Counted from the first letter of the stretch, positions 803-19,416 are shown. The stretch is 64,000 nt of DNA from a virus (IMGVR_UViG_2595698293_000001:224001-288000), one strand, 5' to 3'. Numbers and translations: made by a program. Notes: a model not told the origin generated them from the letters alone.

Positions 803-1075
803 GATATGCCACTAAGTCCGTTTATAAAGTCGCACCCAGTGGGCTACATTTGTAACTATTCAGTACTTAATAATTCAACTCATCAATTATTACAAACCTA
901 ACTATTTCAAATCTAATTACCCCATTAACTAAATCCCCAAATTATATATTAGCAAAAATCCCAGTACTAAATCAAGAAAAATCTGGATTGTCGATGAGAA
1001 AAAATCTGGATTTTAAAAATTTTGAAATGTCGTTCATAGTTCAGGAAAAAAATGAAATCATAACAAGAAAAGTGT

Positions 1076-1104
1076 TGACACGGACATACTGCCATTATAT
1101 AATG
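1076..1104 (+). promoter_or_regulatory. sigma70 promoter for a long non-coding region
   Basis: TTGACA-17-TATAAT, perfect consensus. Confidence 0.85.
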
Positions 1105-1109
1105 TAATC

Positions 1110-1555
1110 CTCAAGACGAGAGAATGTTCTCTCACAGAAAATGCGAAGAAGCCGAGTTTATCTGTCCCTGCGTTAGTGGGCTAACATTTGAATAGGACAA
1201 TACGTAGATGAGTGAAAAAGGTTCAAAGGGAAATATTTGATTCCCTGTAGTATAGTTAATGAGTTAGTACTGATTTAGATATAATCATTGAGTAGTACTA
1301 CTGTCGCAAAGGGAAACCTTTGGCTTCCATGGGGAGTGATGACAGAAGGGCATTATCCTCCATATAGAGTTACTGCGAATAACTCCGTAAGTTGGGTTGT
1401 GGCAAACCTCCTAAAATAGTGAATCTACAGTACTACTGATTGGTAGTACTGCTTTTAATTTAAAGTGTTTCTTTCCATAGAGAAAAGGTGCATGTAACTT
1501 GAACATGTGAACTACGGGAACAGTACTGAACAATTCCAGTACTGATTCCTCTCCA
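1110..1555 (+). ncRNA. candidate large structured ncRNA (~450 nt)
   Basis: perfect promoter, no ORF of 60 aa or more, about 10 hairpins (e.g. GAGAGAA/TTCTCTC, CAAAGG-GAAA-CCTTTG, CAGTACTAC/GTAGTACTG). Confidence 0.55.
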
Positions 1556-1596
1556 AATTTTGGATACAATAATGCTAGGCTTCAGTTAGTACTGAG

Positions 1597-1715
1597 TGAG
1601 AATGATAATGATTCTCATTTGAATTGGATGAGAACGATTCTCATTTACTATTGCAAATGATAATAGATTGCATTTACGAATGGTTCTCATTCGCAGATGA
1701 TAATGATTCTTATTC
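1597..1715. promoter_or_regulatory. array of ~5 Fur-box-like sites
   Basis: TGATAATGATTCTCA (1603-1617) has one mismatch to the Fur 7-1-7 consensus; related copies at 1628, 1655, 1678, 1697. Confidence 0.7.
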
Positions 1716-1847
1716 AAAATTGATTTTTCCGATTTTTTCCATTAGTCACCCTTCAGCGTAGGGTTAATTTTTCCCCTGCCGAATCGGTTTTATATTTTCA
1801 AAATCTGGATTAATCATATCAGTACTAACCCAGATAAACAATACCCT

Positions 1848-1862
1848 TTTACAAATCTTTAC
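1848..1862 (-). promoter_or_regulatory. CpxR-like box
   Basis: TTTAC-AAATC-TTTAC (GTAAA-N5-GTAAA on the - strand), 6 bp from a minus-strand -35. Confidence 0.55.
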
Positions 1863-1885
1863 AAAAAGATTCTAAATGCGAATAC

Positions 1886-1906
1886 AAATGATAATGATTC
1901 TCATTT
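1886..1906. promoter_or_regulatory. Fur-box-like site
   Basis: AAATGATAATGATTCTCATTT. Confidence 0.7.
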
Positions 1907-1914
1907 ACAGTACT

Positions 1915-1960
1915 GAATACTTTTCCCCACGCCCTGGCGTCTCCGGTTCCTCCCGTCTAT
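1915..1960 (-). ncRNA. short two-hairpin RNA unit (divergent copy)
   Basis: minus-strand promoter TTGACT-16-TATAAT (1994-1967); CGG-gaggaa-CCG then ACGC-cagg-GCGT. Confidence 0.4.
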
Positions 1961-2062
1961 ATAAACATTATACAGTACTGAAATATTAAGTCAATACTAT
2001 TTTTTCAAAAAGATTAAAATAAAATACTTGCAATCCTGATATTATTATATTATAATGTTTAC

Positions 2063-2110
2063 AGTACTGAGAAAGTGCTTTTGCCAGCTAGGGTGCGGGG
2101 GAGTATGCGT
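2063..2110 (+). ncRNA. short two-hairpin RNA unit
   Basis: TTGCAA-17-TATAAT; AGTACT-gagaa-AGTGCT then GGGTGC-N6-GTAT. Confidence 0.45.
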
Positions 2111-2111
2111 T

Positions 2112-2132
2112 AAATGAGAATGATAATCATTT
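2112..2132. promoter_or_regulatory. Fur-box-like site between convergent promoters
   Basis: AAATGAGAATGATAATCATTT. Confidence 0.65.
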
Positions 2133-2144
2133 ACAGTACTGGAC

Positions 2145-2180
2145 GGATTTTCCCACCCTCGGGGGTCTCTTTTTGTCTAT
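2145..2180 (-). ncRNA. short RNA unit (divergent copy)
   Basis: minus-strand promoter TTGATA-16-TATAAT; ACCC-ccga-GGGT. Confidence 0.35.
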
Positions 2181-2219
2181 GTAGTAATTATACAGTACTG
2201 AGATACTATATCAAGTCTC

Positions 2220-2234
2220 TTTACAAATCTTTAC
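2220..2234 (-). promoter_or_regulatory. CpxR-like box
   Basis: TTTACAAATCTTTAC, 5 bp from a minus-strand -35. Confidence 0.55.
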
Positions 2235-2328
2235 AAATCACCCGGGGAGATTTTTCTTTACAATAAAAGTACTTGCATAATTCTTTCAGTACTGCTATTA
2301 TATATTCATACCAAACAGGAGAACTACC

Positions 2329-2499
2329 ATGAAATACGCATACTCTTATTTTATTGTGAACGGTGAACGTTTGACCATCGGCCAGGCAGCGGTAAAGCAT
2401 GAAATCATTTGCGATGATCTGGCGAAGATGCTACCAGGTGAAACGCAAGAGTTTTACAAAGGCTTTCAGAAAGTCACTGTGACCCGCTGCGAAGATTGA
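2329..2499 (+). CDS. small early protein (56 aa, not in ORF track)
   Basis: promoter plus AGGAG RBS; MKYAYSYFIVNGERLT... Confidence 0.75.
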   Translation: MKYAYSYFIVNGERLTIGQAAVKHEIICDDLAKMLPGETQEFYKGFQKVTVTRCED

Positions 2500-2562
2500 T
2501 CCAGTACTGGGGCAGCAATGCCCCTAAAACGTCCTGTAACGCATTGTAAGAGGTTTTAGAAT

Positions 2563-2790
2563 ATGGCTAGAGAAGTTAACGCAGGTGATATAAAGGCGGC
2601 TGTACTGCGTACACTGAAAGCATACGGCAGAAAGTTGAATGATCGCAACGTTCCCTATTATTTCCTTGCTGCTACTCATAAAATGGCAATCGCTGAGGCT
2701 CGCGGGTGGCTGAATGATCGCAGTACTGTAAAGAGTACCAGAACAAGAAACGCAATTGAGCGATGGATAAAAGAATTAAATCATTTCTAA
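2563..2790 (+). CDS. hypothetical early protein
   Basis: ORF with GAGG RBS. Confidence 0.7.
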   Translation: MAREVNAGDIKAAVLRTLKAYGRKLNDRNVPYYFLAATHKMAIAEARGWLNDRSTVKSTRTRNAIERWIKELNHF

Positions 2791-2832
2791 TAGTTCAGTA
2801 CTGAAATTATAAGGGGAGTTAATTAATTCCCC

Positions 2833-2847
2833 TTTACAAATCTTTAC
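2833..2847 (-). promoter_or_regulatory. CpxR-like box
   Basis: TTTACAAATCTTTAC, 10 bp upstream of TTGACA. Confidence 0.55.
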
Positions 2848-2892
2848 AAAAGAATTGTTGACATAGTATCCCAGTACTGGTATTATGTATTC

Positions 2893-2940
2893 ATAGACAG
2901 AACAAGTCTTTGGCCCACCGGGTGCGGGGGAGTATCTATT
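2893..2940 (+). ncRNA. short two-hairpin RNA unit
   Basis: TTGACA-17-TATTAT; AGAC-agaacaa-GTCT, CCC-acc-GGGTGC-N6-GTATCTAT. Confidence 0.6.
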
Positions 2941-2946
2941 AGATTG

Positions 2947-2972
2947 AATGAGAATGATAATGATTCTCATTT
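2947..2972. promoter_or_regulatory. Fur-box-like site between convergent promoters
   Basis: AATGAGAATGATAATGATTCTCATTT. Confidence 0.7.
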
Positions 2973-2979
2973 ACTGTAC

Positions 2980-3027
2980 TGAATATATTTCCGCACCCTT
3001 TTGGGCTTTTCGATTACTTTCTACTTG
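2980..3027 (-). ncRNA. short RNA unit (divergent copy)
   Basis: minus-strand promoter TTGCAT-16-TATACT; GCCC-aaaa-GGGTGC. Confidence 0.4.
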
Positions 3028-3066
3028 TTAATAAGTATACCATAATCAGTACTGAATGCAATGGTC

Positions 3067-3081
3067 TTTACAAATCTTTAC
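3067..3081 (-). promoter_or_regulatory. CpxR-like box
   Basis: TTTACAAATCTTTAC, 5 bp from a minus-strand -35. Confidence 0.55.
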
Positions 3082-3178
3082 AAAAGAAAATAATTATAAA
3101 AAGTACTGAAAAAGTACTTGACGTAATAATGTAGTACTGGCATAATACATCCATACCAAACAGAACGGAGTAACTATA

Positions 3179-3466
3179 ATGTTTAATGAAAATGATCATA
3201 TTGTTAAAGAGTTTTCTTTCAGTAAGCCTATCCATTTAGAAAACGGTGAAACGCTGGACAATAAATTTTATGGTAGTATTATTAAGCGTTATACATCGCG
3301 GAGTAGTACTGGAATTTTGTGGGAAGTGAATAAACAGTACAATGGTAATTCGCTGGTTGTCAATGAGTGGGAAAGTTATGCAGTAGCTGAAATGGATTTT
3401 TCTAACTTTATTACTGAATCTTTGAACGATGATATTTTTTACAAGTTCACGGCGGAAAGGGTTTAA
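3179..3466 (+). CDS. hypothetical early protein
   Basis: own promoter, GGAG RBS. Confidence 0.75.
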   Translation: MFNENDHIVKEFSFSKPIHLENGETLDNKFYGSIIKRYTSRSSTGILWEVNKQYNGNSLVVNEWESYAVAEMDFSNFITESLNDDIFYKFTAERV

Positions 3467-3483
3467 AAAGTTTTAAAGAGTAC

Positions 3484-3511
3484 TTGACAACATAAACCAG
3501 TACTGTATAAT
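3484..3511 (+). promoter_or_regulatory. prototype early sigma70 promoter with two AGTACT sites
   Basis: agtacTTGACA-acataaaccagtactg-TATAAT; roughly 30 similar promoters between 2.2 and 20 kb. Confidence 0.85.
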
Positions 3512-3582
3512 GTATTGCATAGAAAGGAGATTCCAGAATAATGGAATCTCCGATAAAACAAACTAATCAGGAGTTAATTACC

Positions 3583-4191
3583 ATGAACGTTATCGATACC
3601 ATCTATTCTAAATCTTTTATCGAACTGAATGAAGAGCAGAAAGAAAAAGCAATTGATATTATGCGGGAAATTGAAAATCAGGACACTACCCCTTATTGGT
3701 CAATTGATCTTGTTAACCAGATGAAAGAAAAATTAGTACAATATGGAATTGATGATTCTGAAATTTTGTGGTCTGGATTTTGTTCACAGGGAGACGGTGC
3801 AAGTATCAGCACTGAATCAATTAATGCTGAGATGTTTTTACGTAAGGTAAAAGCGTGGTCTAAATTTAAAGGCTTGCGTAAATTCATCTCCGAAGAAACT
3901 ATTTCTTTGAGTGTTCGCCGGGTGAGCCATCATTACTATCATGAATATTGTGTTAGTGGTAATGTTGAAATTGCTTATTGTGAAGATGTTACCGCCAAAC
4001 AAGAACAATTAGTGGACGATTTGCAAACTTTGATCACAAGTACTATTCGTGATTTGTCTCGTGAATTGTATAAAGATTTAGGGAATGAAAACGATTATCA
4101 AAATAGTGATGAAGCATTGATTGAATTGATTAATGCAAATGATTATAATTTCAAAGTTAATAGTACTGGTAACGTATTGGGGTTAGCGTAA
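3583..4191 (+). CDS. conserved phage protein (WSGFCSQGDGAS motif)
   Basis: start moved to the ATG after AGGAG; motif recalled from mobile-element proteins of unknown function. Confidence 0.75.
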   Translation: MNVIDTIYSKSFIELNEEQKEKAIDIMREIENQDTTPYWSIDLVNQMKEKLVQYGIDDSEILWSGFCSQGDGASISTESINAEMFLRKVKAWSKFKGLRKFISEETISLSVRRVSHHYYHEYCVSGNVEIAYCEDVTAKQEQLVDDLQTLITSTIRDLSRELYKDLGNENDYQNSDEALIELINANDYNFKVNSTGNVLGLA

Positions 4192-4275
4192 TGACTAAAT
4201 TATATATTCGTTTCTGTTTTGCCTGGTACTTGTATAATCTGCAAAATGGTTATACAGTGAAATAATGCACTGATA

Positions 4276-4321
4276 TACTGTAAAACGTCCTGTAAACGAT
4301 TATGGGACGTTTTAAGGAATA
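4276..4321. repeat. palindromic repeat, copy 1
   Basis: TAAAACGTCC-N14-GGACGTTTTA; near-identical to 11717-11762. Confidence 0.8.
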
Positions 4322-4476
4322 TTAGTACAATGTTAGTACTGAATGATTTAAACGCCTTACAGTGGCTTACCGAGCGTTTAAAAAGTAATTGACGTAATAA
4401 TGTAGTACTGGCATAATTCATCTATACCAAACAACAAAGGGAATCAGTACTGATTCCCCTGTAAGGAGTAACCAAA

Positions 4477-4791
4477 ATGAGTACTAAAGAACTGAATGTA
4501 ACTACCAACACTTATAAGACGTTATGCGGTCGGTTGTTACGTGATTATTACACTGTAGAGATTGAAGAACGCGAATTACCCGAAGATAAACACTATTGGG
4601 AAAGTGGTGTTAGTCCTCTGCTACGGGTAACAACGTCTAAGCATGTTTTCTTTACTTCCCGCATTCATGTTAATAAGCGTGTTGAATTGACTTTCTCTTT
4701 CAGTGGTAGTTATAAAGATCATGAGATCTTGAATGATCGTATCGTTATTAATAAATTTATTCAAATGTATGGTGCGGATTCTTTACTTTAA
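4477..4791 (+). CDS. hypothetical early protein
   Basis: promoter, leader hairpin, AAGGAG RBS. Confidence 0.8.
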   Translation: MSTKELNVTTNTYKTLCGRLLRDYYTVEIEERELPEDKHYWESGVSPLLRVTTSKHVFFTSRIHVNKRVELTFSFSGSYKDHEILNDRIVINKFIQMYGADSLL

Positions 4792-4877
4792 GTACTTGAC
4801 AATTCGATCCAGTACTGTATAATGTATTACATCAAAGGGGATACATAGTGTATCCCTGATATAAAGGAGTAGCGACT

Positions 4878-5237
4878 ATGCGAGCTTTTAACGTTTATAA
4901 GAATGACAAGAAAATTGATGTTGTTTATTATTCCGAAGTAATGACGGCAAAAGAAGTAACCGATTTGCTGAATAGCCGTGGTGAATACAACGGCGAAGTA
5001 AAAGCATTTCGGTCATTGAATAGTGCGAATATTCGCACAGTACTGAAAAATGCTAAAACTGTTTTATTCAATGATGACGAATATTTTAATAAAGATGTTA
5101 CGGGTATTAAAAACCTGGAAGATCTGAAAAGCCTTATTGGTATTAAAGGCAACGTATACAAAGTGGGGGAAGTCGGATCCCGCCATGAATATAAATTAGC
5201 CAATAGTGATTATAAATTTTCAATCCTGGTAATGTAA
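4878..5237 (+). CDS. hypothetical early protein
   Basis: promoter, leader hairpin, AAGGAG RBS. Confidence 0.8.
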   Translation: MRAFNVYKNDKKIDVVYYSEVMTAKEVTDLLNSRGEYNGEVKAFRSLNSANIRTVLKNAKTVLFNDDEYFNKDVTGIKNLEDLKSLIGIKGNVYKVGEVGSRHEYKLANSDYKFSILVM

Positions 5238-5238
5238 T

Positions 5239-5442
5239 ATGAAAGTTTATATTTTGGAAGTGGAAGAATGTAATTCATATTCTTACAGTGGTACACTATC
5301 ACGCGTGGAGGCGGTATTTGCCAGCGAGAAAGAAGCCCACGCCGCTGGGGTTCAAAAAGTAAAAGAAGGCTATGAAGGTTATAGCGTCGATGCTTATGAT
5401 ATTCAGGGCGATCTTTCAGCACTTTTAAAGGAATTAAAATAA
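5239..5442 (+). CDS. hypothetical early protein
   Basis: coupled to upstream ORF. Confidence 0.7.
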   Translation: MKVYILEVEECNSYSYSGTLSRVEAVFASEKEAHAAGVQKVKEGYEGYSVDAYDIQGDLSALLKELK

Positions 5443-5657
5443 TGGAATATGAATTAATATATCACACTCGGTTATATGTTATTTTCTTTGAAATAACGTT
5501 ATGGGGAGTAAAGGCAACGATTTATAATAAAGACGTTGTCGACGATCAAGAATGGATCGTTGTTGCAGAAGATAAAACGCCTCATGATTCGTTAAGTACT
5601 GATTTTAAATTATGCCGTGAATTATTAAAGAGAATAAGAAAAGAGAATAATATATAA
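5442..5657 (+). CDS. hypothetical early protein
   Basis: TAATG overlap, AAGGA RBS. Confidence 0.7.
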   Translation: MEYELIYHTRLYVIFFEITLWGVKATIYNKDVVDDQEWIVVAEDKTPHDSLSTDFKLCRELLKRIRKENNI

Positions 5658-5687
5658 AACAAAGGGGATCGATTGATCCCCTTTGTT
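5658..5687. terminator. bidirectional intrinsic terminator
   Basis: AACAAAGGGGATC-gatt-GATCCCCTTTGTT. Confidence 0.8.
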
Positions 5688-5706
5688 GTTTCAGTACTGA
5701 ATTAAT

Positions 5707-5756
5707 AATAGATACACTACGGCACCCTATGGGTTAGTGCCTTGTGTCCGGCTTAT
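5707..5756 (-). ncRNA. short two-hairpin RNA unit
   Basis: minus-strand promoter TTGACT-17-CATAAT; GCC-ggacacaa-GGC, CCC-ata-GGGTGC-N6-GTATCTAT. Confidence 0.6.
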
Positions 5757-5801
5757 GTGGTTATTATGCCAGTACTGCGAACATAAGTCAATAGTTGATT
5801 T

Positions 5802-5816
5802 GTAAAGAAGTGTAAA
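5802..5816 (+). promoter_or_regulatory. CpxR-like box
   Basis: GTAAA-GAAGT-GTAAA, 10 bp from minus-strand TTGACT. Confidence 0.55.
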
Positions 5817-6019
5817 TGCACAGGAAGCATTGTAAGGCGTTAATCTGTTGCTGGTGGCTGATAGTATAGAGTAGTGTTTTAGATTGATTGTAGGCCGTTG
5901 TAGGCGTTTATAGATAGTAAAGTACTGATAATGTTTAATGATCCTGGTATGTGCAAATTATTTTAATTTTTTTCGTATTGGGTATTGACGGATTATGTCA
6001 GTACTGGCATAATGTATCA

Positions 6020-6150
6020 CATGAAGCGGCGAGATAGAAAATCATCTCAGTAGCTGGCCAGTAAAGCATACGAAGTCCTGGTGTCGCCTCAAACGGTTTT
6101 AGGTATCAAATAACACGTAACATCTAAACGTTGATGATACTGAAAACTAA
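6020..6150 (+). ncRNA. candidate structured RNA or leader upstream of the H-NS-like gene
   Basis: promoter TTGACG-17-CATAAT at 5985; nested stems GGCGA/TCGCC, GAGAT/ATCTC, CCAG/CTGG, GTATCA/TGATAC. Confidence 0.4.
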
Positions 6151-6246
6151 AAAGAAAAAAGTAGTTGACAAGTACTAACGAGAATGAGATAATCTCTCTC
6201 GTTGAAACAAACAAACAATCTTAATCAAAACTTAAAGGTGAATAAA

Positions 6247-6747
6247 ATGGCTAAACTGAATTCTGTGATCGTTGCTCTGCTGGCTGGTGATGTTGCTGCT
6301 CTGAATACTTCTTTCGCGTCGGTATCGATGGAAGATATGAAAACTGTTCGTAATAACTTTAACGAGTTTTACTCCAAGTTTAAAGCTGCTAATGAAGCTG
6401 CTGAAGCGGCGGCGAAAGAGCGTAAAGTACAGATCGAAACCGAAACGAAAGAACTGGTAGACGCCCTGGTAACTGCTGGCCTGGATCTGGAAATGGCCGC
6501 CGAAGTCGCCAGCCAGAAAATGGCGGTGAAATATCCCGAACTGGCTCCGAAGTCTGCAACTGGTAAAACCTGGTCGTTTGAAACCGTATTCGTTAACGTT
6601 GACGGTGAAAAACTGGAAATTGGCACCAAAGGCAACAAAGGCAGTATGAAAGCACTGGCGGCGGCACGCGAAGCAATTGCCGCAGGCAAATACAAAGATC
6701 GTGCTGAATGGATCGCCGCTCACGCCTGGACTGAAACCGAAGCGTAA
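6247..6747 (+). CDS. H-NS/MvaT-like nucleoid-associated protein (putative)
   Basis: coiled coil ending LVDALVTAGLDLE resembles H-NS YREMLIADGIDPNE; C-terminal GEKLEIGTKGN resembles MvaT GEVIETKGGN; highly expressed codon usage. Confidence 0.5.
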   Translation: MAKLNSVIVALLAGDVAALNTSFASVSMEDMKTVRNNFNEFYSKFKAANEAAEAAAKERKVQIETETKELVDALVTAGLDLEMAAEVASQKMAVKYPELAPKSATGKTWSFETVFVNVDGEKLEIGTKGNKGSMKALAAAREAIAAGKYKDRAEWIAAHAWTETEA

Positions 6748-6768
6748 TAATTCAGTACTGTAATAATT

Positions 6769-6794
6769 AGCCTCCTGTAATTAGGAGGCTTTTT
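6769..6794 (+). terminator. intrinsic terminator
   Basis: AGCCTCCT...AGGAGGCT-TTTT. Confidence 0.85.
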
Positions 6795-6904
6795 ATTTTG
6801 TTCAAAAAAATATTTTAATTTATTTTTTGAACGGACTTCAAAAATCGGATATAATAATAAAGGGTGTTAATTACAGAGACCCCCATAGTGTTCGCTACGC
6901 TCAC

Positions 6905-6941
6905 ATAATGATCTTACTCGTTGCACTCGTAAGATCATTAT
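6905..6941. repeat. 13-bp perfect inverted repeat
   Basis: ATAATGATCTTAC-tcgttgcactc-GTAAGATCATTAT. Confidence 0.8.
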
Positions 6942-8462: not shown

Positions 8463-8468
8463 CAAGCT

Positions 8469-12723: not shown

Positions 12724-12725
12724 AG

Positions 12726-12756: not shown

Positions 12757-12774
12757 GTATTCAGTACTAAATTA

Positions 12775-12823: not shown

Positions 12824-12949
12824 GTAGTAATTATATGATAAAGCTGGTGGCTTGTCAACACTTATTTTAAAATAAAAAGTACTGAATAGTACTTGCAAAA
12901 AGTATTCAGTACTGTATAATGTTTGTATTGAGATTAAGGAGTTCTTACT

Positions 12950-13507
12950 ATGTTAATCAAAATGTATCACGGTTCTAATAATTTTGATCATCGCTGGGGA
13001 TATCTGGGTGGAAAACCTGGCAATTTTCATATGGGTTTTGGACTATATCTAACTAACTCTTATCGCTGGGCTGATAATTATGGGCGACGTCATTATGAGT
13101 TAGATTTAGATATTTGTAGTACTGGTGCCGCACATAATGTATGGATTCCTACTAAACACTTTATGGAATTCATAAGAGTATATTGTACTAAAAAGTTTTA
13201 TACAATGTGCTGTAAAGAATTTAAAGACCGTGAATCTTTGAATGTAGAACGCGTTGAATTGCTTATTATCAATATGGAAAGGCACGTTACGAAAATCGCT
13301 AAACCATTTGCTGAATTCGTCGCTGCCTGGGGTTGTACGCATAGCATTGAAATATCCGGTAACTATGGTGGTGTTTGCGTGCGGCTTTATGATTTCAGTA
13401 TTATAAAGAATTGTATCATAAGCCAGGAAACGCAGGATTTTTATTATCCAGATGAATTGACAAGATATCCTCAAAAAACTTGTATTAATGATTCAGTACT
13501 GATATAA
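12950..13507 (+). CDS. ADP-ribosyltransferase-fold protein (putative)
   Basis: YHGS...GFGLYLT...A..YG motif typical of H-Y-type ART/PARP-like domains. Confidence 0.6.
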   Translation: MLIKMYHGSNNFDHRWGYLGGKPGNFHMGFGLYLTNSYRWADNYGRRHYELDLDICSTGAAHNVWIPTKHFMEFIRVYCTKKFYTMCCKEFKDRESLNVERVELLIINMERHVTKIAKPFAEFVAAWGCTHSIEISGNYGGVCVRLYDFSIIKNCIISQETQDFYYPDELTRYPQKTCINDSVLI

Positions 13508-13539
13508 TGAATTAAATTAATCAGGAGGAATTATCTTAA

Positions 13540-13668
13540 ATGAATAACCGTCAATTGATGATCGATGCATCTCGTTTTCGTTCAAAAGAAGAAAAGAGAA
13601 GTTGCATTAAATGGGTTTTGTCAACTTTCATTATTGGATTACTTATTGTTGCTTTTGTTTATAGTTAG
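13540..13668 (+). CDS. small membrane protein (42 aa, not in track)
   Basis: promoter, AGGAGG RBS, C-terminal TM segment. Confidence 0.6.
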   Translation: MNNRQLMIDASRFRSKEEKRSCIKWVLSTFIIGLLIVAFVYS

Positions 13669-13752
13669 TACTTGACAATATAATCCAGTACTGTATAATG
13701 TTTATCAAAGGGAATGAATTATTCATTCCCGATTAATCAAAGGAGTTTTGCC

Positions 13753-13977
13753 ATGATCTATATTATCAAAGTATCCCCGACCGTAGGTAAATCAGAAGTT
13801 GTAGCTGTTATCACTTCCCTGGAAGCGAAAGATCTTCATACCCCGTTTAATGTATGGGTGGAGGATAATTTCGGACAATTCAGTACTGCTGAATATATCG
13901 AACAATTCGCTGTCCCGGACACTGGTAAAATCAAAGTGGATCGTGTCCTGGATTTTGATAACAGTAATTACTTTTAA
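13753..13977 (+). CDS. hypothetical early protein
   Basis: promoter, leader hairpin, AAGGAG. Confidence 0.75.
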   Translation: MIYIIKVSPTVGKSEVVAVITSLEAKDLHTPFNVWVEDNFGQFSTAEYIEQFAVPDTGKIKVDRVLDFDNSNYF

Positions 13978-14063
13978 AAACGTTTGACAACTGATTTCAG
14001 TACTGTATAATGTTTATCAAAGGGAATGAATTATTCATTCCCGATTAATCAAAGGGGTTTATC

Positions 14064-14210
14064 ATGAAAGAGTATATCTTTGAAGTAACTTTCACATTTG
14101 GCCCGCACCAACTGATCCGGTCTTCTGGCTACAACCGCGAACAAGCATTCAGCAACCTTCGCCGTATGTACCCCAATGTCGTGACCTGGGTCAAGTGTGA
14201 AGAAGCTTAA
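14064..14210 (+). CDS. small early protein (48 aa, not in track)
   Basis: promoter/leader cassette duplicated from 13.7 kb; MKEYIFEVTFTFG... Confidence 0.7.
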   Translation: MKEYIFEVTFTFGPHQLIRSSGYNREQAFSNLRRMYPNVVTWVKCEEA

Positions 14211-14290
14211 AATAATTAGTCAGTACTATTGACAACGGGTGATAGTACTGCTATAATTATTTTAACTTATACGGAATGGAGTTAAAACAA

Positions 14291-14527
14291 ATGTTCAGTG
14301 TCAGCAAACAAGGCGACAAATTTCTGGTTCAATACCATCATTTTGATCTGGTATACACTCAGCCAGATTGTGTATTCAGTACTCAGGAAGGTGCCGAAAA
14401 GCACAAAAAAGCCTTGATCGAAAATAGCAACAGTGGTACATTAGATTTCATCCAACAGTACTGGAATGAATCTAAGCTGGTGGACGGTTATTCCAACACA
14501 GTTTATTATGTAGGTATCACTGATTAA
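14291..14527 (+). CDS. hypothetical early protein
   Basis: GGAG RBS. Confidence 0.75.
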   Translation: MFSVSKQGDKFLVQYHHFDLVYTQPDCVFSTQEGAEKHKKALIENSNSGTLDFIQQYWNESKLVDGYSNTVYYVGITD

Positions 14528-14629
14528 TCGGGAGTACTGTTAATGTATATGCCAATTATCATACCGTTAGCAGTACTGTTAATCGCCGCCGTTATCTGCG
14601 AACAATATCATTTGTTAGGAATGTAAACT

Positions 14630-14800
14630 ATGATTCAATGTGAATTGTCAGTACTGATCACGCTGTTCTATATGTTGGGGCAAAAGAAACAAGATATTTC
14701 TGGTGATAATGCATTATTGTATCAATCATTAGACCAATGGCAACGATCTGAATTAAGCAATGCATGGGCGAAAGGTTACAACGATAGTACTGCAAAATAA
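14630..14800 (+). CDS. small early protein (not in track)
   Basis: AGGA RBS; ends ...SNAWAKGYNDSTAK. Confidence 0.55.
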   Translation: MIQCELSVLITLFYMLGQKKQDISGDNALLYQSLDQWQRSELSNAWAKGYNDSTAK

Positions 14801-14806
14801 TTTAAA

Positions 14807-14834
14807 AAAGGGGTTGACTTACGCCAGCCCTTTT
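14807..14834 (+). terminator. terminator overlapping an RNA-unit promoter
   Basis: AAAGGGGTTG...CAGCCCTTTT. Confidence 0.6.
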
Positions 14835-14848
14835 GTTATCATTAGTAC

Positions 14849-14896
14849 ATAGCAAGAACAATGCTCAAGCCCACAGGGTGCGGAGGTGTATCTATA
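14849..14896 (+). ncRNA. short two-hairpin RNA unit
   Basis: TTGACT-17-TATCAT; AGCA-agaacaa-TGCT, CCC-aca-GGGTGC-N6-GTATCTATA. Confidence 0.6.
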
Positions 14897-14987
14897 GTTT
14901 ATGTTGGTCTGAATCATTAATTTTCTTGACAATTGGTTTAGTACTGGATATAATAGCCGCCATTGAATACAGGAGGATTTTAAAAAA

Positions 14988-15254
14988 ATGGCCTATCATA
15001 CACCACATAGACATTTCATTGATAAACGCGGTATGGCTTTTAAAGCAATGAGTGACAATCGTAACACACAAATGTACTTTAAAGATATGACGTTAGAAGA
15101 AGCTATTGAAGCTGTAAGGAATGATCGTAAGCTTTCCAAGAAAGTTGCATCAGTACTTAATGCTTTTTGGTTTGAACGTACTACCAACAAAGAATACAAA
15201 GAAAAGATGATTGCACTTGGTAAAGTAGTAAGAGAAGAAAAATTATATCTTTAA
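14988..15254 (+). CDS. hypothetical early protein
   Basis: promoter plus AGGAGG. Confidence 0.8.
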   Translation: MAYHTPHRHFIDKRGMAFKAMSDNRNTQMYFKDMTLEEAIEAVRNDRKLSKKVASVLNAFWFERTTNKEYKEKMIALGKVVREEKLYL

Positions 15255-15317
15255 GTACTTGACTATGTGATTCAGTACTGCTATTATATATTCATACCAA
15301 TTAAGGAGATAGACCAA

Positions 15318-15425
15318 ATGAAACAAGCTAAATTTAATTCAGAAATTAAAGCAGCAAAAGCACACAAAGTACAGTTAGTAGTACTGGTTATTGTATCAAT
15401 CTTTTTGCTGTGCAACATCGGCTAA
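15318..15425 (+). CDS. small membrane protein (35 aa, not in track)
   Basis: promoter plus AAGGAG; TM segment. Confidence 0.6.
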   Translation: MKQAKFNSEIKAAKAHKVQLVVLVIVSIFLLCNIG

Positions 15426-15505
15426 AATAATTATTACAGTACTATTGACAACCAACGATAGTACTGGTATAATTACTTTACCAAATAAAAAAGGAGTAAC
15501 CAAAA

Positions 15506-15781
15506 ATGCGGATTAAACTTACCAGTGATGAGATTCATTCAGTACTGACTACCAATATGCAGGACTGGAAAAAGTACGCTGATATCGAAGAAGTCCAGGA
15601 ACTCAATGATGATTTGAGTGTAGATGAAATTATCACTATTTGCTCATCTCAATTCTTTGATGATATCAATGATGAAGAGCAAGATGTATTTGATATCATG
15701 GAAAAACATTTTATTGCGTATGATGTTTTCCCGTATACTCGCCAGGCTTATATTCTTATTCACAACATTTATAACAAATAA
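15506..15781 (+). CDS. acidic early protein
   Basis: promoter plus AAGGAG. Confidence 0.8.
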   Translation: MRIKLTSDEIHSVLTTNMQDWKKYADIEEVQELNDDLSVDEIITICSSQFFDDINDEEQDVFDIMEKHFIAYDVFPYTRQAYILIHNIYNK

Positions 15782-15793
15782 GGAATAATAATC

Positions 15794-16159
15794 ATGGAAA
15801 AAGAATTTAAAATCAAATACAATATCAGTACCGATGGCGGTTTTGAAGTACCAGAAGAAGATCAAGAACGTCTTAATGATGTTATTATGATTGACATTTC
15901 AAATAAAATCATTCAAGGCTACCGCGAAGGTGAATTGTGTGAATCGTTGATGGATCAATTCGATGAAGTGGAAACGTTTTATCGTGGCTGGTGGAGTATC
16001 GAAGAAGTTCACAAAGTACACGAATACCGTGTATTCTGGATTAATGGCGTTAATGATATCGAAGATATCATTGTAAAAGAAAGTAGTGAATCCGCCGCCA
16101 TTCAGTACTTTAAAGATCACTACCCCAACAAACGTTATCACCATTTAGAAAAAATTTAA
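15794..16159 (+). CDS. acidic early protein
   Basis: AAGGA RBS. Confidence 0.8.
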   Translation: MEKEFKIKYNISTDGGFEVPEEDQERLNDVIMIDISNKIIQGYREGELCESLMDQFDEVETFYRGWWSIEEVHKVHEYRVFWINGVNDIEDIIVKESSESAAIQYFKDHYPNKRYHHLEKI

Positions 16160-16246
16160 AAAGTAATTGACAACATAATCCAGTACTGATATATTAATAC
16201 GCATAGGGGCAAACAACTTGCCCCACTAAACAAAAGGAACTACCAA

Positions 16247-16603
16247 ATGATTACTAAATTCTACGCTACTCGTGAACAGGCTCGGATCGTCGCTCGTGAA
16301 GAAGGCGAAACCTTCAAAGATATGGGTAAAGATTCCCCTGCTGGTCAACGCTGGGCAGTACTGTTCCGCGAGGTCAAAGACCTGGTAGAAAACGCTAAAG
16401 CCGTTGAAATGAACGTTCCCACCAAAGAAGATAAAGAACTGACTGATGCCCTCGCTGCTGCATTCTCCGCGATGGATAAAGCCGCAGCGGTAGTACTGAA
16501 AGTACCGGAATTTGTTACCAGAAAAGTGCATTCAGTACTACAAAATAAATTCAACGGTAAACAGGTTCAAGTGTTTACTAAACGTAAAATTCCGGTCATG
16601 TAA
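16247..16603 (+). CDS. hypothetical early protein
   Basis: promoter, leader hairpin, highly expressed codon usage. Confidence 0.8.
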   Translation: MITKFYATREQARIVAREEGETFKDMGKDSPAGQRWAVLFREVKDLVENAKAVEMNVPTKEDKELTDALAAAFSAMDKAAAVVLKVPEFVTRKVHSVLQNKFNGKQVQVFTKRKIPVM

Positions 16604-16707
16604 AATCTGACTATTACAGTACTAACAAAGGGGCTTCAATGCCCCTTTAAACGTCCTGTAAGCCATTCTAAGAGGTTTTACATGAAAAGGTACAACTACA
16701 CAAAGGA

Positions 16708-16929
16708 GTGATGAAAGTTCATTATAATGCCCCGCAACGCATTATAGATAGAGCCATTGAACTAGCCAATCAATACCTAGCTGGTGGATTAACTCCCAGG
16801 AAGTTAAGCAACGGGAAGTTATATGTAATCAACGTTGATACTAATAATCGTATAGTAATCAAAGGTGAAAGCATATCACTGTATGAACATCAGCAGTATA
16901 ACAAGAAAGTAAAAAATATTAGTAGATAA
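16708..16929 (+). CDS. ParE/RelE-like small basic protein (putative)
   Basis: PRKL...YVINV..NNRIV...LYEHQQYN pattern resembles phage ParE-like domains. Confidence 0.45.
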   Translation: MMKVHYNAPQRIIDRAIELANQYLAGGLTPRKLSNGKLYVINVDTNNRIVIKGESISLYEHQQYNKKVKNISR

Positions 16930-17008
16930 GTGTTGACAACTGATTTCAGTACTGCCATAATGTATACATACAAGGCAATACCGCCTAATAACATAGGAGT
17001 AACTGAAA

Positions 17009-17431
17009 ATGAAAAAATCCACTAAAATTATCTTAGGTGTATTTGTTGTTCCGGCAGTAGCCTTTTTTACTTGTGCTATGATTTTTGGTGATGCTTCTCG
17101 GGTTGCCGCAAAAATCGAAAAAGAAAAACAAGTCCAGGTGGAAGTCAAGAAAGAAGAAAAGAAAAATTATAACACTGTATGGGAAGCAATTTGCCATACC
17201 AGTAATGGTAAAAGGATCTCCATCCTTACAGCGATGAATAATGGAAAATCAATCGTCGGAAACGAATATATGGAAGTTACTTCCAGTACTGGTAAAGAAT
17301 TTGTAATGACGAACTATAATAACAATAACGTTGCAATTGTTACACAAGATTTTAAAGGTAATGCAGTACTTGAATATCATACGGAATATGAAGTAATATT
17401 TGCAAAATGCACATTTGAATGGGGTGCATAA
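17009..17431 (+). CDS. membrane-anchored or exported protein
   Basis: MKK followed by an N-terminal hydrophobic helix. Confidence 0.75.
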   Translation: MKKSTKIILGVFVVPAVAFFTCAMIFGDASRVAAKIEKEKQVQVEVKKEEKKNYNTVWEAICHTSNGKRISILTAMNNGKSIVGNEYMEVTSSTGKEFVMTNYNNNNVAIVTQDFKGNAVLEYHTEYEVIFAKCTFEWGA

Positions 17432-17450
17432 AAATAAACATAATAAACAA

Positions 17451-17480
17451 AAAAGGGGGTTGACACAGGTCAGCCCTTTT
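17451..17480 (+). terminator. terminator overlapping an RNA-unit promoter
   Basis: GGGTTGAC-acag-GTCAGCCC-TTTT. Confidence 0.7.
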
Positions 17481-17494
17481 GCTATTATTAATAT

Positions 17495-17537
17495 CAAGAA
17501 AACAAGCTAACCCACAGGGTGCATAAATGTATCTATA
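17495..17537 (+). ncRNA. short RNA unit (first stem degenerate)
   Basis: TTGACA-17-TATTAT; CCC-aca-GGGTGC-N6-GTATCTATA. Confidence 0.55.
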
Positions 17538-17614
17538 ATTTATTAAAGAATTTTAGTACTTGACAACGTAGTACAGCAGTACTAAAATATCTACATACAA
17601 AGGAGATTACCAAA

Positions 17615-18199
17615 ATGAACAAACATCTTAAAGTACTGAATAAATGTAAATCCAATACCGAAATGTTACTGTACTGTTACAAAAATTTAATTAAACTCGG
17701 GAGAGGTTCATCCAGAACAGTATTTTTGTTAACAAAAAACAAAGTACTGAAAGTTGCTCATAACCATATTGGCAACCAACAGAATACAGCAGAAATCACT
17801 GCATGGTTGTATATTGATTATGACCGCTATTATAATAAACGCTTTTTCGCTAAAGTGTTCCCTGATATGTCGCATTTTAAAGATGTATACATAGTACAGG
17901 AGTACTGCGACAATATCAGTACTAAAGAAGCGAAGCCATACATTGAACATTACTTGACACCTAGCACTATTGAAAATGAGCGTGCTAAACGCTTCCACAC
18001 GGCGTTAAGAGATGTAGACAATACCCTTAACTATAAAACGCTGGTGGACTTAAACGTGGGCAATATAGGCCGTTCTGTAAGGGGTGCAATAAAACTCCGT
18101 GATTATGGATTATCTGAACATATTGCTAAACAGTATAGAGAAGCCCGCGACCAGTACCACCAACTCAAAAGTATTAGTAACATAAGTATTGATTTATAA
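17615..18199 (+). CDS. Ser/Thr protein kinase-like protein
   Basis: GRGSSR Gly loop, VLK, alphaC Glu, DLNVGN catalytic loop, DYG. Confidence 0.8.
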   Translation: MNKHLKVLNKCKSNTEMLLYCYKNLIKLGRGSSRTVFLLTKNKVLKVAHNHIGNQQNTAEITAWLYIDYDRYYNKRFFAKVFPDMSHFKDVYIVQEYCDNISTKEAKPYIEHYLTPSTIENERAKRFHTALRDVDNTLNYKTLVDLNVGNIGRSVRGAIKLRDYGLSEHIAKQYREARDQYHQLKSISNISIDL

Positions 18200-18264
18200 T
18201 TTCAGTACTGCTATAGTACTTTCACAGGGGAGATAATCTCCCCAATCACAAAGGAGATTTTACC

Positions 18265-18627
18265 ATGAGTACTAAACCATTTGTAACCACTCGTTCTAAT
18301 CTGACTGAGATCTATGTACATGGTGGATATGAGGAAACGTATGTCACTGGTATTATGGTAGAATTCAATCAGGGTTATCGGTTTATGTTGGTAGATTCAG
18401 AAATCTATCATACACAACAAGATAAACATGGTTATGTCAATAAGTACTCCACCGATGAAGTACTGAAACGCCTGGATAACAAAATTAAACAAATTCAAAA
18501 ACATCTTGACAACGGCGGAAAACTTAATCATTTACTTTGGGATAGCTTAGATCCCTGCTACGGTTCCGATGCATATGGTAAAAGCCGTGACACTGCAATG
18601 AAAGTACTTAAAGATTATTTCTTTTAA
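18265..18627 (+). CDS. hypothetical early protein
   Basis: promoter, leader hairpin, AAGGAG. Confidence 0.8.
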   Translation: MSTKPFVTTRSNLTEIYVHGGYEETYVTGIMVEFNQGYRFMLVDSEIYHTQQDKHGYVNKYSTDEVLKRLDNKIKQIQKHLDNGGKLNHLLWDSLDPCYGSDAYGKSRDTAMKVLKDYFF

Positions 18628-18707
18628 GTATTGACAAGTAATTCCAGTACTGGCATAATGTATTTCAAGGAGGTAATAACACCTCCTACCTTCAAGGAGT
18701 AGTGACT

Positions 18708-18944
18708 ATGAATACTAAAGAAATGCTTTGTGAGTTCGCCAGTAACAATCTTGGCAACGCCGCGTTCATTGATGGTTTTAATTATGTAGCAACTCGTGAT
18801 CAAGAAGGTAAAGTATTCGTTAAAGATCGTATGGGCTTTTCTATCCAGGTTCAATCCGGTACTGCAAGCCATATCGACGGCATGAATGTATGGGCTGCTA
18901 CTATCCCCGGTGATGGAACATATCATTTCCGTATCGTAAAATAA
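18708..18944 (+). CDS. hypothetical early protein
   Basis: promoter, leader hairpin, AAGGAG. Confidence 0.8.
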   Translation: MNTKEMLCEFASNNLGNAAFIDGFNYVATRDQEGKVFVKDRMGFSIQVQSGTASHIDGMNVWAATIPGDGTYHFRIVK

Positions 18945-19033
18945 TTTAAAAAGTACTGGACAATACAATCCAGTACTGTATAATGTTTTGCATAGGGAGA
19001 GATAATCTCTCCCACTAAAGGAGAATACCGAAA

Positions 19034-19315
19034 ATGATTACTGGTCACATTACTAACTATGCAAAACGCCGCGATGTAGAAATAGAAGTACTGAAAGCAG
19101 GCGAAGTTGACGATGACGCTCAGGTATGGTTCTACACCGCAGACAATGATTGTGAACCAGTACTGATGTACCTGATTAATAATGATGGTTCTCTTACTTA
19201 TCGTAGCAAACTGATGAAGTCCCTGGAAGATATGCCAGCACATATCAATAATAAAGAAGTACTGAAACGCGTAATCTGCTACATCTCAGACCAGCACAAA
19301 GCGGATATGATGTAA
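19034..19315 (+). CDS. hypothetical early protein
   Basis: promoter, leader hairpin, AAGGAG. Confidence 0.8.
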   Translation: MITGHITNYAKRRDVEIEVLKAGEVDDDAQVWFYTADNDCEPVLMYLINNDGSLTYRSKLMKSLEDMPAHINNKEVLKRVICYISDQHKADMM

Positions 19316-19329
19316 TCTTTACAAATATG

Positions 19330-19354
19330 GGGGTTGACTAATGTCAGCCCTTTT
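19330..19354 (+). terminator. terminator overlapping an RNA-unit promoter
   Basis: GGGTTGAC-taat-GTCAGCCC-TTTT. Confidence 0.7.
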
Positions 19355-19368
19355 GGTATTATATATTC

Positions 19369-19416
19369 AATCCAGCGAAATGGTCTAACCCTCAAGGGTG
19401 CCGAGATGTATCTATA
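19369..19416 (+). ncRNA. short two-hairpin RNA unit
   Basis: TTGACT-17-TATTAT; CCA-gcgaaa-TGG, CCC-tcaa-GGGTGC-N6-GTATCTATA. Confidence 0.6.

What the first reader, a model, noticed from the sequence alone, without database searches (positions are those of the whole stretch)
832..19416. Dispersed family of ~12-14 individually promoted ~45-nt two-hairpin RNA units
Seen: gene-free units on both strands (2063+, 2893+, 5756-, 9480+, 10917+, 12823-, 14849+, 17495+, 19369+; divergent copies at 832-, 1747-, 1960-, 2180-, 3027-). Nearly all have their own sigma70 promoter. Hairpin 1 has a stem that changes sequence but stays paired (AGAC/GTCT, GCC/GGC, ACCAC/GTGGT, GGC/GCC, AGC/GCT, AGCA/TGCT, CCA/TGG) around a purine-rich loop, often AGAACAA. 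Hairpin 2 is CCC-N3/4-GGG, followed by TGC-N6-GTATCTATA. There is no RBS or ORF, and the minus-strand copies face no gene. Established: stem covariation indicates RNA-level selection, and lambdoid boxB is a short stem with a GAAGA/GACAA-type loop. Inference: a multicopy early phage sRNA acting as decoy, sponge or antitoxin mimic for a host (defence) protein, or a nut-like antitermination element. I do not recognise it as a known family.
Basis: partly seen in the sequence, partly recalled or inferred. Interest (0 to 1): 0.9.

Follow-up and report, generated by a model that had tools for sequence, protein, structure and literature searches.

The report
Promoter-coupled early RNA family, jumbo phage
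A giant Klebsiella phage and its relatives carry 8 to 13 copies of a short promoter-plus-structured-RNA cassette, found only in the terminal repeat that holds their early genes; the RNA family appears to be undescribed and its job is unknown.

Summary
The family is real, but smaller than claimed. There are 8 canonical units (2893+, 5706-, 9480+, 10917+, 12774-, 14849+, 17493+, 19368+), one borderline copy (2977-3025-), and 4-5 degenerate look-alikes.

Each unit is about 49 nt. All 66 copies first collected start 4-10 nt after the -10 box of a sigma70-type promoter, so the unit is nucleotides +1 to +49 of a transcript.

- **Hairpin 1** starts at nt 3 and shows strong covariation: its four pairs are the four highest mutual-information column pairs.
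- **Hairpin 2** (R-CCC-AYA-GGG-U), GC, a purine-rich hexamer and GUAUCUAU are nearly invariant.

Twelve RaK2-like jumbo phages, from six enterobacterial host genera, carry 8-13 units each. In all 11 searched as whole records they lie in one terminal block of about 20 kb. Nothing matched in Rfam, in E. coli genomes or in 185,579 species genomes. Three contexts recur: upstream of a second promoter and a gene, head-to-head pairs, and antisense copies facing terminators.

Best reading (about 0.4): the RNA itself is the product, an abundant very early small RNA that binds a conserved partner. Rivals are a cis-acting put/nut-like element, a PeSL-like regulatory cassette, and a DNA operator. No expression data were found.

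This scan reached the same reading earlier on another genome (e1-1960540).

The parts
2858..2941 (+). Sigma70-type promoter (TTGACA-17-TATTAT) plus canonical unit 2893-2941. It converges on the borderline unit 2977-3025(-).
   Evidence: (E 5.5e-15).
2977..3062 (-). Borderline unit (2977-3025) with its promoter. It keeps CCC-AAAA-GGGTGC but has a degenerate tail. It is the head-to-head partner of 2893+, with a Fur-box-like palindrome between them.
   Evidence: E 0.025; E 0.0046.
5706..5792 (-). Canonical unit 5706-5755 with its promoter. It is transcribed leftward into the bidirectional terminator at about 5658-5687.
   Evidence: (z -5.2 with the terminator).
9445..9530 (+). Terminator-embedded promoter (GGGGTTGAC...CCCCTTTTG TTATTAT) plus canonical unit 9480-9530. 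A second promoter follows at about 9594-9644, then a gene.
   Evidence: (D11, D14).
10882..10963 (+). Promoter plus canonical unit 10917-10963. A TTTAC-N5-TTTAC box lies upstream at 10856-10870.
12774..12860 (-). Canonical unit 12774-12822 with its promoter. It is transcribed leftward into the bidirectional terminator at about 12727-12756.
   Evidence: (z -2.8).
14813..14897 (+). Terminator-embedded promoter plus canonical unit 14849-14897, the best-scoring copy. Its first 43 nt are identical in five phage records (four Salmonella phages and one Klebsiella aerogenes phage).
   Evidence: (E 8.4e-16).
17458..17538 (+). Terminator-embedded promoter plus unit 17493-17538. Hairpin 1 is lost; hairpin 2 and the tail are intact.
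19333..19417 (+). Terminator-embedded promoter plus canonical unit 19368-19417. Hairpin 2 has a 4-nt loop.
   Evidence: E 5.9e-5; E 4.5e-10.
2030..2112 (+). It has a promoter and a 5' hairpin and shares GGGTGCGGGGGAGTAT with unit 2893, but hairpin 2 and the tail are degenerate.
   Evidence: 3 mismatches; E 7.5. Not found.
822..859 (-). Degenerate look-alike (CCC-ACT-GGGTGC) lying at the left boundary of the terminal repeat as mapped from phage Muenster.
   Evidence: E 0.64; E 3.2.
815..20666 (.). Extent of the direct terminal repeat, inferred by homology to phage Muenster (its annotated repeat is 1-20030). All units lie inside it.

Best explanation
This is a lineage-specific family of promoter-coupled structured RNAs. 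Each cassette is a strong sigma70-type promoter followed by a 49-nt RNA that starts at +1.

**Anatomy**
- Two unpaired nucleotides come first.
- Hairpin 1 has 3-5 bp of free sequence and a 6-8-nt purine-rich loop. It works as a 5'-terminal protective hairpin.
- An invariant core follows: YUA, hairpin 2 (R-CCC-AYA-GGG-U), GC, a purine-rich hexamer ending in U, then GUAUCUAU.

**Proposed mechanism**
The RNA itself is the selected product. It is made by host RNA polymerase from 8-13 promoters in the terminal repeat that holds the early genes. That gives a high dose of a small 5'-triphosphate RNA of about 50-100 nt.
- Antisense copies are ended by a terminator.
- Head-to-head pairs would be ended by polymerase collision.
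- Tandem copies would be ended by cleavage in the A/U-rich stretch that follows.

The RNA then acts in trans through its invariant core, by binding a partner conserved across Enterobacterales or across these phages, most likely a protein.

**Shown:** the family, its position at +1, RNA-level selection, confinement to the terminal block, and gene-less contexts.
**Inferred:** discrete short RNAs, action in trans, and the existence of a partner.
For: - All 66 of 66 collected units have a promoter scoring >= 8 of 12, with a 17-18-bp spacer. The -10 box ends 4-10 nt before unit nt 1, and 51 of 66 score >= 10 of 12. Only 20 of 2000 random positions in the same loci reach 10.
- Hairpin 1 is 91.7-92.1% paired, against 12.5-51.6% in slid controls. 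All 4 pairs show changes on both sides, and 0 of 500 shuffles reach the observed score.
- Its 4 pairs are the top 4 of all column pairs by mutual information, at 1.21-1.66 bits; the next is 0.64.
- Without any alignment, 55 of 63 distinct units fold a single hairpin. In all but two of them it opens at nt 2-5, usually nt 3.
- Hairpin 2 is 99.8% paired, with 2 CCU/AGG double changes.
- 38 of 125 units sit in 19 head-to-head pairs, and 10 more meet a terminator first. In these contexts no gene can be served.
- The distance from the unit to the next promoter varies from 13 to 90 nt, so the core is not a phased upstream site for that promoter.
- There are 8-13 copies per genome in 12 genomes. In all 11 searched as whole records they lie in one block of <= 22 kb.
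- The first 43 nt of unit 14849 are identical in five phage records from other genera (four Salmonella phages and one Klebsiella aerogenes phage). With a 5-kb query from this region, those same records matched only over a unit and its promoter.
Against: - There is no transcript evidence. The only runs holding this DNA are wastewater contigs that cannot show ends or levels. The one deeper RNA-library contig (9390-9578) begins upstream of the promoter, so it is not a discrete small RNA.
- 47 of 125 units meet a second promoter with no terminator between. Those transcripts may simply be long mRNA leaders.
- No partner was identified. The terminal-repeat proteins conserved in 6 of 6 genomes gave no RNA-binding family.
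- The hairpins are weak: z is -1.2 to +0.5 for plus-strand units.
- The covariation counts rest on alignments fitted to the model, and copies within a genome are paralogues. One search is independent of the alignment.
Confidence: 0.4

Rival explanations
1. The unit is a cis-acting, co-transcriptional element in the manner of put or nut. The nascent two-hairpin RNA, alone or with a host or phage factor, modifies the polymerase that made it. That polymerase then pauses, or reads through the many terminators of the terminal repeat, including the terminators that follow the antisense copies.
For: - The unit always sits at +1 of a promoter.
- There are two adjacent hairpins, with conserved sequence in the second.
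- 4 of the 8 unit promoters in the window are embedded in the terminator of the preceding operon. Both antisense units are followed within about 35 nt by a terminator, an arrangement like a short terminated RNA awaiting read-through.
- Invariant GG and a near-invariant U, usually followed by G, are spaced as in a polymerase pause signal (the pause consensus is recalled, not tested).
Against: - No boxA lies near any unit.
- No NusG-like or Q-like gene was found in the genome.
- No arginine-rich small ORF exists in this phage's repeat.
- Head-to-head pairs 13-31 nt apart make two modified polymerases collide, which suits no read-through design.
- Rfam gave no hit of any kind.
Confidence: 0.25
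2. The unit is a PeSL-like regulatory cassette with no specific RNA function. The repeats would be terminator-promoter modules with a 5' stabilising hairpin that set operon boundaries. Head-to-head and antisense promoters would act as insulators by collision. The repeats would also serve as recombination points that shuffle early genes.
For: - Composite terminator-promoter structure: 38 of 66 units have a hairpin of <= -8 kcal/mol over the -35 region (a rough count).
- The units lie in a region of small, variable early genes. Indels relative to Muenster lie between blocks.
- Wastewater contigs join repeated promoter or unit regions, for example 3062 to 5798, which lie just upstream of two minus-strand unit promoters (table 5).
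- PeSLs are described for T4-like phages (PMC4122927, text parts 1-2 read).
Against: - PeSLs end in a Shine-Dalgarno sequence and a start codon. These units have neither in conserved form.
- The strongest conservation lies downstream of the start site, in a 27-nt core kept across six host genera. That exceeds what promoter function or recombination needs.
- Hairpin 2 shows compensatory changes.
Confidence: 0.2
3. The conserved core (CCC-N3-GGGTGC-N6-GTATCTAT) is a DNA operator at +21 to +48. A phage or host protein would bind it to shut these promoters off, or to activate a downstream one.
For: - The core is nearly invariant in sequence. CCC-N3-GGG is a short palindrome.
- The helix GGGUGC/GUAUCU has no support beyond shuffles. 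The tail could therefore be read as DNA.
Against: - An operator on a promoter that serves no gene makes no sense for pairs and terminator-facing copies.
- Two CCU/AGG double changes keep pairing but would weaken both half-sites.
- The distance to the next promoter is not fixed, at 13-90 nt.
- Hairpin 1 covariation needs an RNA reading anyway.
Confidence: 0.08

Closest known systems
PeSL (promoter-early stem-loop) cassettes of T4-like phages (Comeau, Arbiol and Krisch 2014, PMC4122927, text parts 1-2 read; Arbiol et al. 2010, PMC2839356, search listing only)
   Same: Both are short repeated regulatory cassettes built on a sigma70-type early promoter joined to a terminator-like stem-loop. Both are dispersed among small variable early genes, and both are probable recombination points.
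   Different: PeSL conservation lies in the stem-loop, the promoter, the Shine-Dalgarno sequence and the start codon. Here the conserved part is a 49-nt transcribed RNA with covarying structure and no coding start. It is confined to the terminal repeat and is often head-to-head or antisense.
Lambdoid nut sites and HK022 put RNAs (processive antitermination elements; features recalled from general knowledge)
   Same: All are small hairpin RNA elements in early phage transcripts. Hairpin 1 has a purine-rich, GNRA-like loop on a stem of free sequence. Like put, there are two adjacent hairpins.
   Different: There is no boxA, and no N-, Q- or NusG-like gene was found. Loops are 6-8 nt. The element is always at +1, is present in 8-13 copies, and many copies face no gene.
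5'-terminal stabiliser hairpins of bacterial and phage mRNAs (ompA-type; recalled)
   Same: Hairpin 1 starts 2 nt from the predicted 5' end and is conserved in pairing but not in sequence.
   Different: This accounts only for hairpin 1. The invariant hairpin 2 and tail, and the gene-less copies, need another function.
Non-coding RNAs in the terminal repeat of the related jumbo phage PA5oct (PMC7318152, passages read)
   Same: [quoted passage not shown]
   Different: The PA5oct RNAs are 236-450 nt single loci found by RNA-seq. No sequence relation was tested, and they are not a multicopy 49-nt family.

Membership tests
Lambdoid nut site (boxA + boxB, N-dependent) | boxB: a short hairpin with a GNRA-like pentaloop | tested here: inconclusive
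   Hairpin 1 has 3-5 bp and loops of 6-8 nt (GAGAAA 11, AGAACAA 10, GCGAAA 10, AGAUAA 7 of 63). The loops are purine-rich but are not pentaloops.
Lambdoid nut site (boxA + boxB, N-dependent) | A boxA element next to the hairpin | tested here: not met
   Three boxA consensus strings (recalled) were tried at <= 1 mismatch. There was no hit at a consistent place within 150 nt of any of the 8 units, only two stray 9-mer hits.
Lambdoid nut site (boxA + boxB, N-dependent) | A phage-encoded arginine-rich N-type protein, or another known antiterminator | tested here: not met
   0 ORFs of >= 35 aa in the window's repeat have >= 6 Arg in 18 residues. Pfam NusG and Phage_antitermQ gave 0 matches in the genome. 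This is a weak test, because N proteins are poorly conserved.
HK022 put-type RNA | Two adjacent stem-loops in the early leader that act on the polymerase without a protein | not testable with these tools
   Two adjacent hairpins are present. No put model or sequence was at hand, and the Rfam scans gave no match at the units. Activity needs in vitro transcription.
PeSL cassette | Repeated sigma70-type early promoter joined to a terminator-like stem-loop | tested here: met
   A promoter is present in 66 of 66 units. A hairpin of <= -8 kcal/mol lies over the -35 region in 38 of 66. 4 of the 8 window units have the GGGG-TTGAC...CCCC-TTTT form (D11).
PeSL cassette | The cassette ends in the Shine-Dalgarno sequence and start codon of the next gene | tested here: not met
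   Only 53 of 111 distinct units have ATG, GTG or TTG at the one recurrent position. The open frames run 1-38 codons, and the stop is not conserved.
Any Rfam family | A score at or above a family's gathering threshold | tested here: not met
   The whole window gave 0 matches at gathering thresholds. In 9430-11000 at E <= 10 there were only chance-level hits, none on a unit.
Type III antitoxin RNA (ToxI-like) | A tandem array of repeats directly upstream of the toxin gene | tested here: not met
   Copies lie 1.4-3.8 kb apart on both strands. None adjoins the ParE-like ORF at 16708-16929.
RNA anti-CRISPR (solitary CRISPR-repeat mimic) | Sequence like a host CRISPR repeat | tested here: not met
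   The unit found nothing in 5,426 E. coli genomes at E <= 10. Two core patterns found 0 matches in genomes of 185,579 species. These exact-pattern searches would miss a loose mimic.

The most novel reading that the evidence does not exclude
The units are a new class of multicopy, very early phage RNA made in the first minute or so of infection. That timing assumes, untested, that the terminal repeat enters the cell first. The RNA's invariant 27-nt core would titrate or re-programme a conserved enterobacterial protein, such as a defence sensor, a ribonuclease or the transcription machinery. The head-to-head promoter pairs would be a terminator-free way to make short RNAs by polymerase collision.
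Probability: 0.25. Interest if true: 0.85.

Novelty: new variant of a known kind. Interest (0 to 1): 0.65.

Why it matters
RaK2-like jumbo phages are being developed against Klebsiella, Salmonella, E. coli, Cronobacter and Erwinia, yet their early programme is unknown.

A structured RNA kept nearly unchanged across six host genera is probably central to takeover or to early transcription control. It is present in 8-13 strongly promoted copies and is confined to the terminal repeat.

It also gives a clean covariance model for annotating these genomes. At present the units are unannotated, or are mis-called as small hypothetical proteins. The family is a tractable test case for RNA-based phage-host conflict.

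Tried and rejected
**Rfam.** The whole window at gathering thresholds gave nothing. A unit-rich stretch at E <= 10 gave only chance-level hits. There are no tRNA or tmRNA genes.

**Third helix.** GGGUGC/GUAUCU is 92.4% paired, but only through one-sided transitions opposite G or U. It does no better than shuffles, so it is unproven.

**Tail as a -10 box of a third promoter.** The hexamer register is not kept outside this phage (by eye). The unit-to-next-promoter distance is 13-90 nt.

**Mini-ORF (MYL-stop).** It is present in only 19 of 111 distinct units.

**Other resemblances, dropped after inspecting the column profile.**
- The purine-rich hexamer as a CsrA or Shine-Dalgarno site. GGA occurs in only 50 of 111 units and GGAG in 27.
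- A resemblance of one hexamer variant to the RfaH ops element (recalled). It holds only for the 5706- type.
- A 7-nt complementarity of the tail to a 16S rRNA loop (recalled). That is chance-level for a 7-mer, and tail variants would break it.

**Host mimicry.** There was no match in E. coli genomes or in 185,579 species genomes with two patterns.

**Protein partner.**
- Six ORF families are shared by 6 of 6 terminal regions.
- Pfam found a ParE-like domain above its cut-off. An H-NS N-terminal domain and a protein kinase domain scored below their cut-offs.
- PHROGs gave unknown-function families for nine of the ten proteins and no match for the tenth. One protein also had a weaker second match annotated as DNA ligase.
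- The protein atlas gave no usable hit for two proteins.

**Expression.** All 23 listed runs are Logan contigs, and most are labelled wastewater metagenome. I laid four of them. Bins holding units tended to have higher summed contig depth in one RNA library. Contig depth cannot rank regions, DNA may be present, and the deepest contig starts upstream of the promoter. This is not evidence either way.

**Literature.**
- Six searches found no description of these units (and the passages read).
- I read passages only of the CBB and PA5oct papers.

**Script correction.** A first promoter-scoring script picked wrong -10 boxes. I replaced it. Only its hairpin and box counts are used, and they are marked as rough.

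Full report
**What the window is.** A 5-kb stretch (8700-13700) is 95-97% identical to Klebsiella jumbo phages Muenster, K64-1 and others. The window is bases 224001-288000 of a 345,809-bp virus record. In Muenster the first 20,030 bp are annotated as a terminal repeat predicted by PhageTerm. Alignment maps that repeat to about 815-20666 of the window. The region is packed with small plus-strand ORFs and sigma70-type promoters.

- The core GGGTGC-N6-GTATCTAT is exact at 8 places. With up to 3 mismatches there are 12 hits against 2.71 expected, and 0 of 100 shuffles reach 12.
- Those 8 are the only exact copies in the whole genome. The reversed pattern gave 0.
- I built a covariance model from three units. 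Run without filters, it finds 8 hits at E <= 5.9e-5, and the next hit is at E = 0.51.
- The model rebuilt from 66 hits finds the same 8 at E <= 4.5e-10, plus 2977-3025(-) at E = 0.0046.
- So there are 8 canonical units, not 9, and one borderline copy.
- 832- is marginal. The models do not find 1747-, 1960- or 2180-; by eye these are promoter-plus-hairpin look-alikes.
- Unit 17493 lacks hairpin 1.

**Position relative to promoters.**
- I scored the upstream 60 nt of all 66 units first collected from seven genomes. All 66 have a -35/-10 pair scoring >= 8 of 12, and 51 score >= 10.
- The spacer is 17 bp in 47 and 18 bp in 19. The -10 box ends 4-10 nt before unit nt 1, at 6-7 nt in 52.
- Of 2000 random positions in the same promoter-rich loci, 20 reach 10.
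- The unit is therefore the first 49 nt of a transcript.
- Four of the eight window promoters lie inside the terminator hairpin of the preceding operon (D11).

**RNA-level selection.**
- On 63 distinct sequences, hairpin 1 is 92.1% paired. All four pairs show changes on both sides: AU, GC, UA, UG and CG at one pair alone.
- Slid controls pair 13.5-51.5% of cells, and 0 of 500 shuffles reach the observed score.
- On 112 distinct sequences from 12 genomes the figures are 91.7% paired, 171 hairpin-1 cells changed on both sides, and 12.5-51.6% in slid controls.
- These alignments were fitted to the model, so I made two further checks.
  - The four hairpin-1 pairs are the four highest mutual-information column pairs of all 1770, at 1.21-1.66 bits; the next is 0.64.
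  - When the first 13-22 nt of each unit are folded alone, 55 of 63 give one hairpin. In all but two of them it opens at nt 2-5, usually nt 3. 42 beat 95% of their own shuffles, and 8 have no hairpin.
- Loops are purine-rich: GAGAAA 11, AGAACAA 10, GCGAAA 10, AGAUAA 7.
- Hairpin 2 is 99.8% paired. CCC/GGG is invariant apart from two CCU/AGG double changes and one break. The outer pair is A-U in 64 and G-U in 48.
- GC, the U that ends the hexamer, and GUAUCUAU are near-invariant.
- The structures are weak on their own, with z between -1.2 and +0.5 for plus-strand units.

**Distribution.**
- Model searches covered eleven whole records: the window's own genome, five jumbo phages from the viral-contig collection, and five from GenBank. 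Every hit lies in one block of <= 22 kb, or in its duplicate at the other end of records that carry both repeat copies.
- With the refined model there are 8-13 units per genome in 12 genomes, 125 in all.
- A blastn search of 50,697 phage records with one unit hit 23 records. All are about 320-384-kb phages of Klebsiella, Salmonella, Escherichia, Erwinia, Cronobacter and Pectobacterium, apart from one 52-kb partial Klebsiella phage record.
- The first 43 nt are identical in five records from other genera (four Salmonella phages and one Klebsiella aerogenes phage). With a 5-kb query from this region, those same records matched only over a unit and its promoter.
- Nothing matched in E. coli genomes, in genomes of 185,579 species or in Rfam.

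**Contexts.** Of the 125 units:
- 38 form 19 head-to-head pairs, with 13, 24 or 31 nt between their 3' ends;
- 47 meet a second sigma70-type promoter first;
- 10 meet a strict terminator first;
- 30 were unclassified by my strict rules. By eye many of these have weaker promoters, terminator-like hairpins or a degenerate partner.

In the window, six plus-strand units precede a second promoter and a gene. Both minus-strand units run into bidirectional terminators. Unit 2893 converges on 2977-3025, with a palindrome between them. Pairs recur about 1 kb from the left end in several genomes.

**What it is not.**
- There is no conserved ORF and no boxA.
- No NusG-like or Q-like gene was found.
- This phage's repeat has no arginine-rich small ORF.
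- The core does not sit at a fixed distance from the next promoter.

**Interpretation.**
- The fixed relation to a promoter, the covariation and the gene-less contexts argue that the transcript, or the act of making it, is the selected product.
- Hairpin 1 lies two nucleotides from the 5' end and is free in sequence. It looks like a 5'-terminal protective hairpin. That such hairpins prolong RNA lifetime is established knowledge that I recall.
- The invariant core looks like a recognition site.
- I favour an abundant early small RNA acting in trans (0.4).
- A cis-acting put/nut-like element comes next (0.25). It fits the +1 position and the neighbouring terminators, but not the head-to-head pairs.
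- A PeSL-like boundary and recombination cassette follows (0.2). It fits the terminator-promoter build and the joints seen between repeats in environmental relatives. It does not explain the conserved transcribed core.
- A DNA operator is least likely (0.08).
- No expression data could be had.

**Prior knowledge.**
- The papers on CBB and PA5oct, of which I read passages, do not mention the units.
- PeSLs are the closest described kind.
- An earlier agent of this scan, working on another genome, described the same cassette and reached the same reading (e1-1960540). I had reached the cassette and the PeSL comparison before seeing that note.

Noticed in passing
window 1590-1720, 1880-1905, 2113-2135, 2945-2972: Palindromes of the form AATGAGAAT-N7-ATTCTCATT resemble Fur boxes. 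There is an array at 1590-1720. Single copies lie exactly between convergent unit pairs (2063+/2180- and 2893+/2977-). A similar site lies between a pair in another genome (L142 978/1055).
   Followed up: partly
window 1848, 2220, 2833, 3067, 5802(-), 10856: TTTAC-N5-TTTAC direct repeats occur 6 times against 0.54 expected. All lie just upstream of unit or look-alike promoters. A single CTTTACAA half-site recurs upstream of units in other genera. Other first-reader notes call this a CpxR-type box.
   Followed up: partly
window 1-20700, mostly: CAGTACTG occurs 88 times in the window against 0.5 expected, and about 66 of these fall in the first 20.7 kb. It sits in the spacer of most gene promoters just before an extended -10 box, and also in the loops of 5'-UTR hairpins.
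   Followed up: partly
window e.g. 4828-4875, 7350-7397, 10270-10310, 13700-13748, 18985-19025: There is a second repeated RNA-like element. Transcripts from the gene promoters begin with a GGG(R)...(Y)CCC hairpin of variable stem sequence, directly before the Shine-Dalgarno sequence (repeat families D8, D15, D17 and D18).
   Followed up: no
window 1076-1560: A perfect TTGACA-17-TATAAT promoter is followed by about 400 nt of GC-richer sequence with no long ORF, near the left end of the terminal repeat. It may be a larger non-coding RNA.
   Followed up: no
window 16708-16929, 6202-6747, 17615-18199: Two ORFs are conserved in the terminal regions of 6 of 6 genomes compared. One is a 73-aa ParE-like toxin-domain protein (Pfam E 2e-10). 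The other is a 181-aa protein with an H-NS N-terminal-domain hit below the cut-off. A 194-aa protein kinase-like ORF in this window did not reach the 4-genome threshold of that comparison.
   Followed up: partly
window 2317/12430, 3062/5798, 12390/18978, 7235/18978: Wastewater contigs of related phages join distant repeated promoter or leader sequences. This suggests deletions and shuffling by recombination between the repeated cassettes.
   Followed up: no
window 4271-4321 and 11712-11762: A 51-nt repeat is 96% identical between the two sites and has an internal hairpin (AAAACGTCC...GGGACGTTTT). Weaker copies lie at 2515 and 16637.
   Followed up: no
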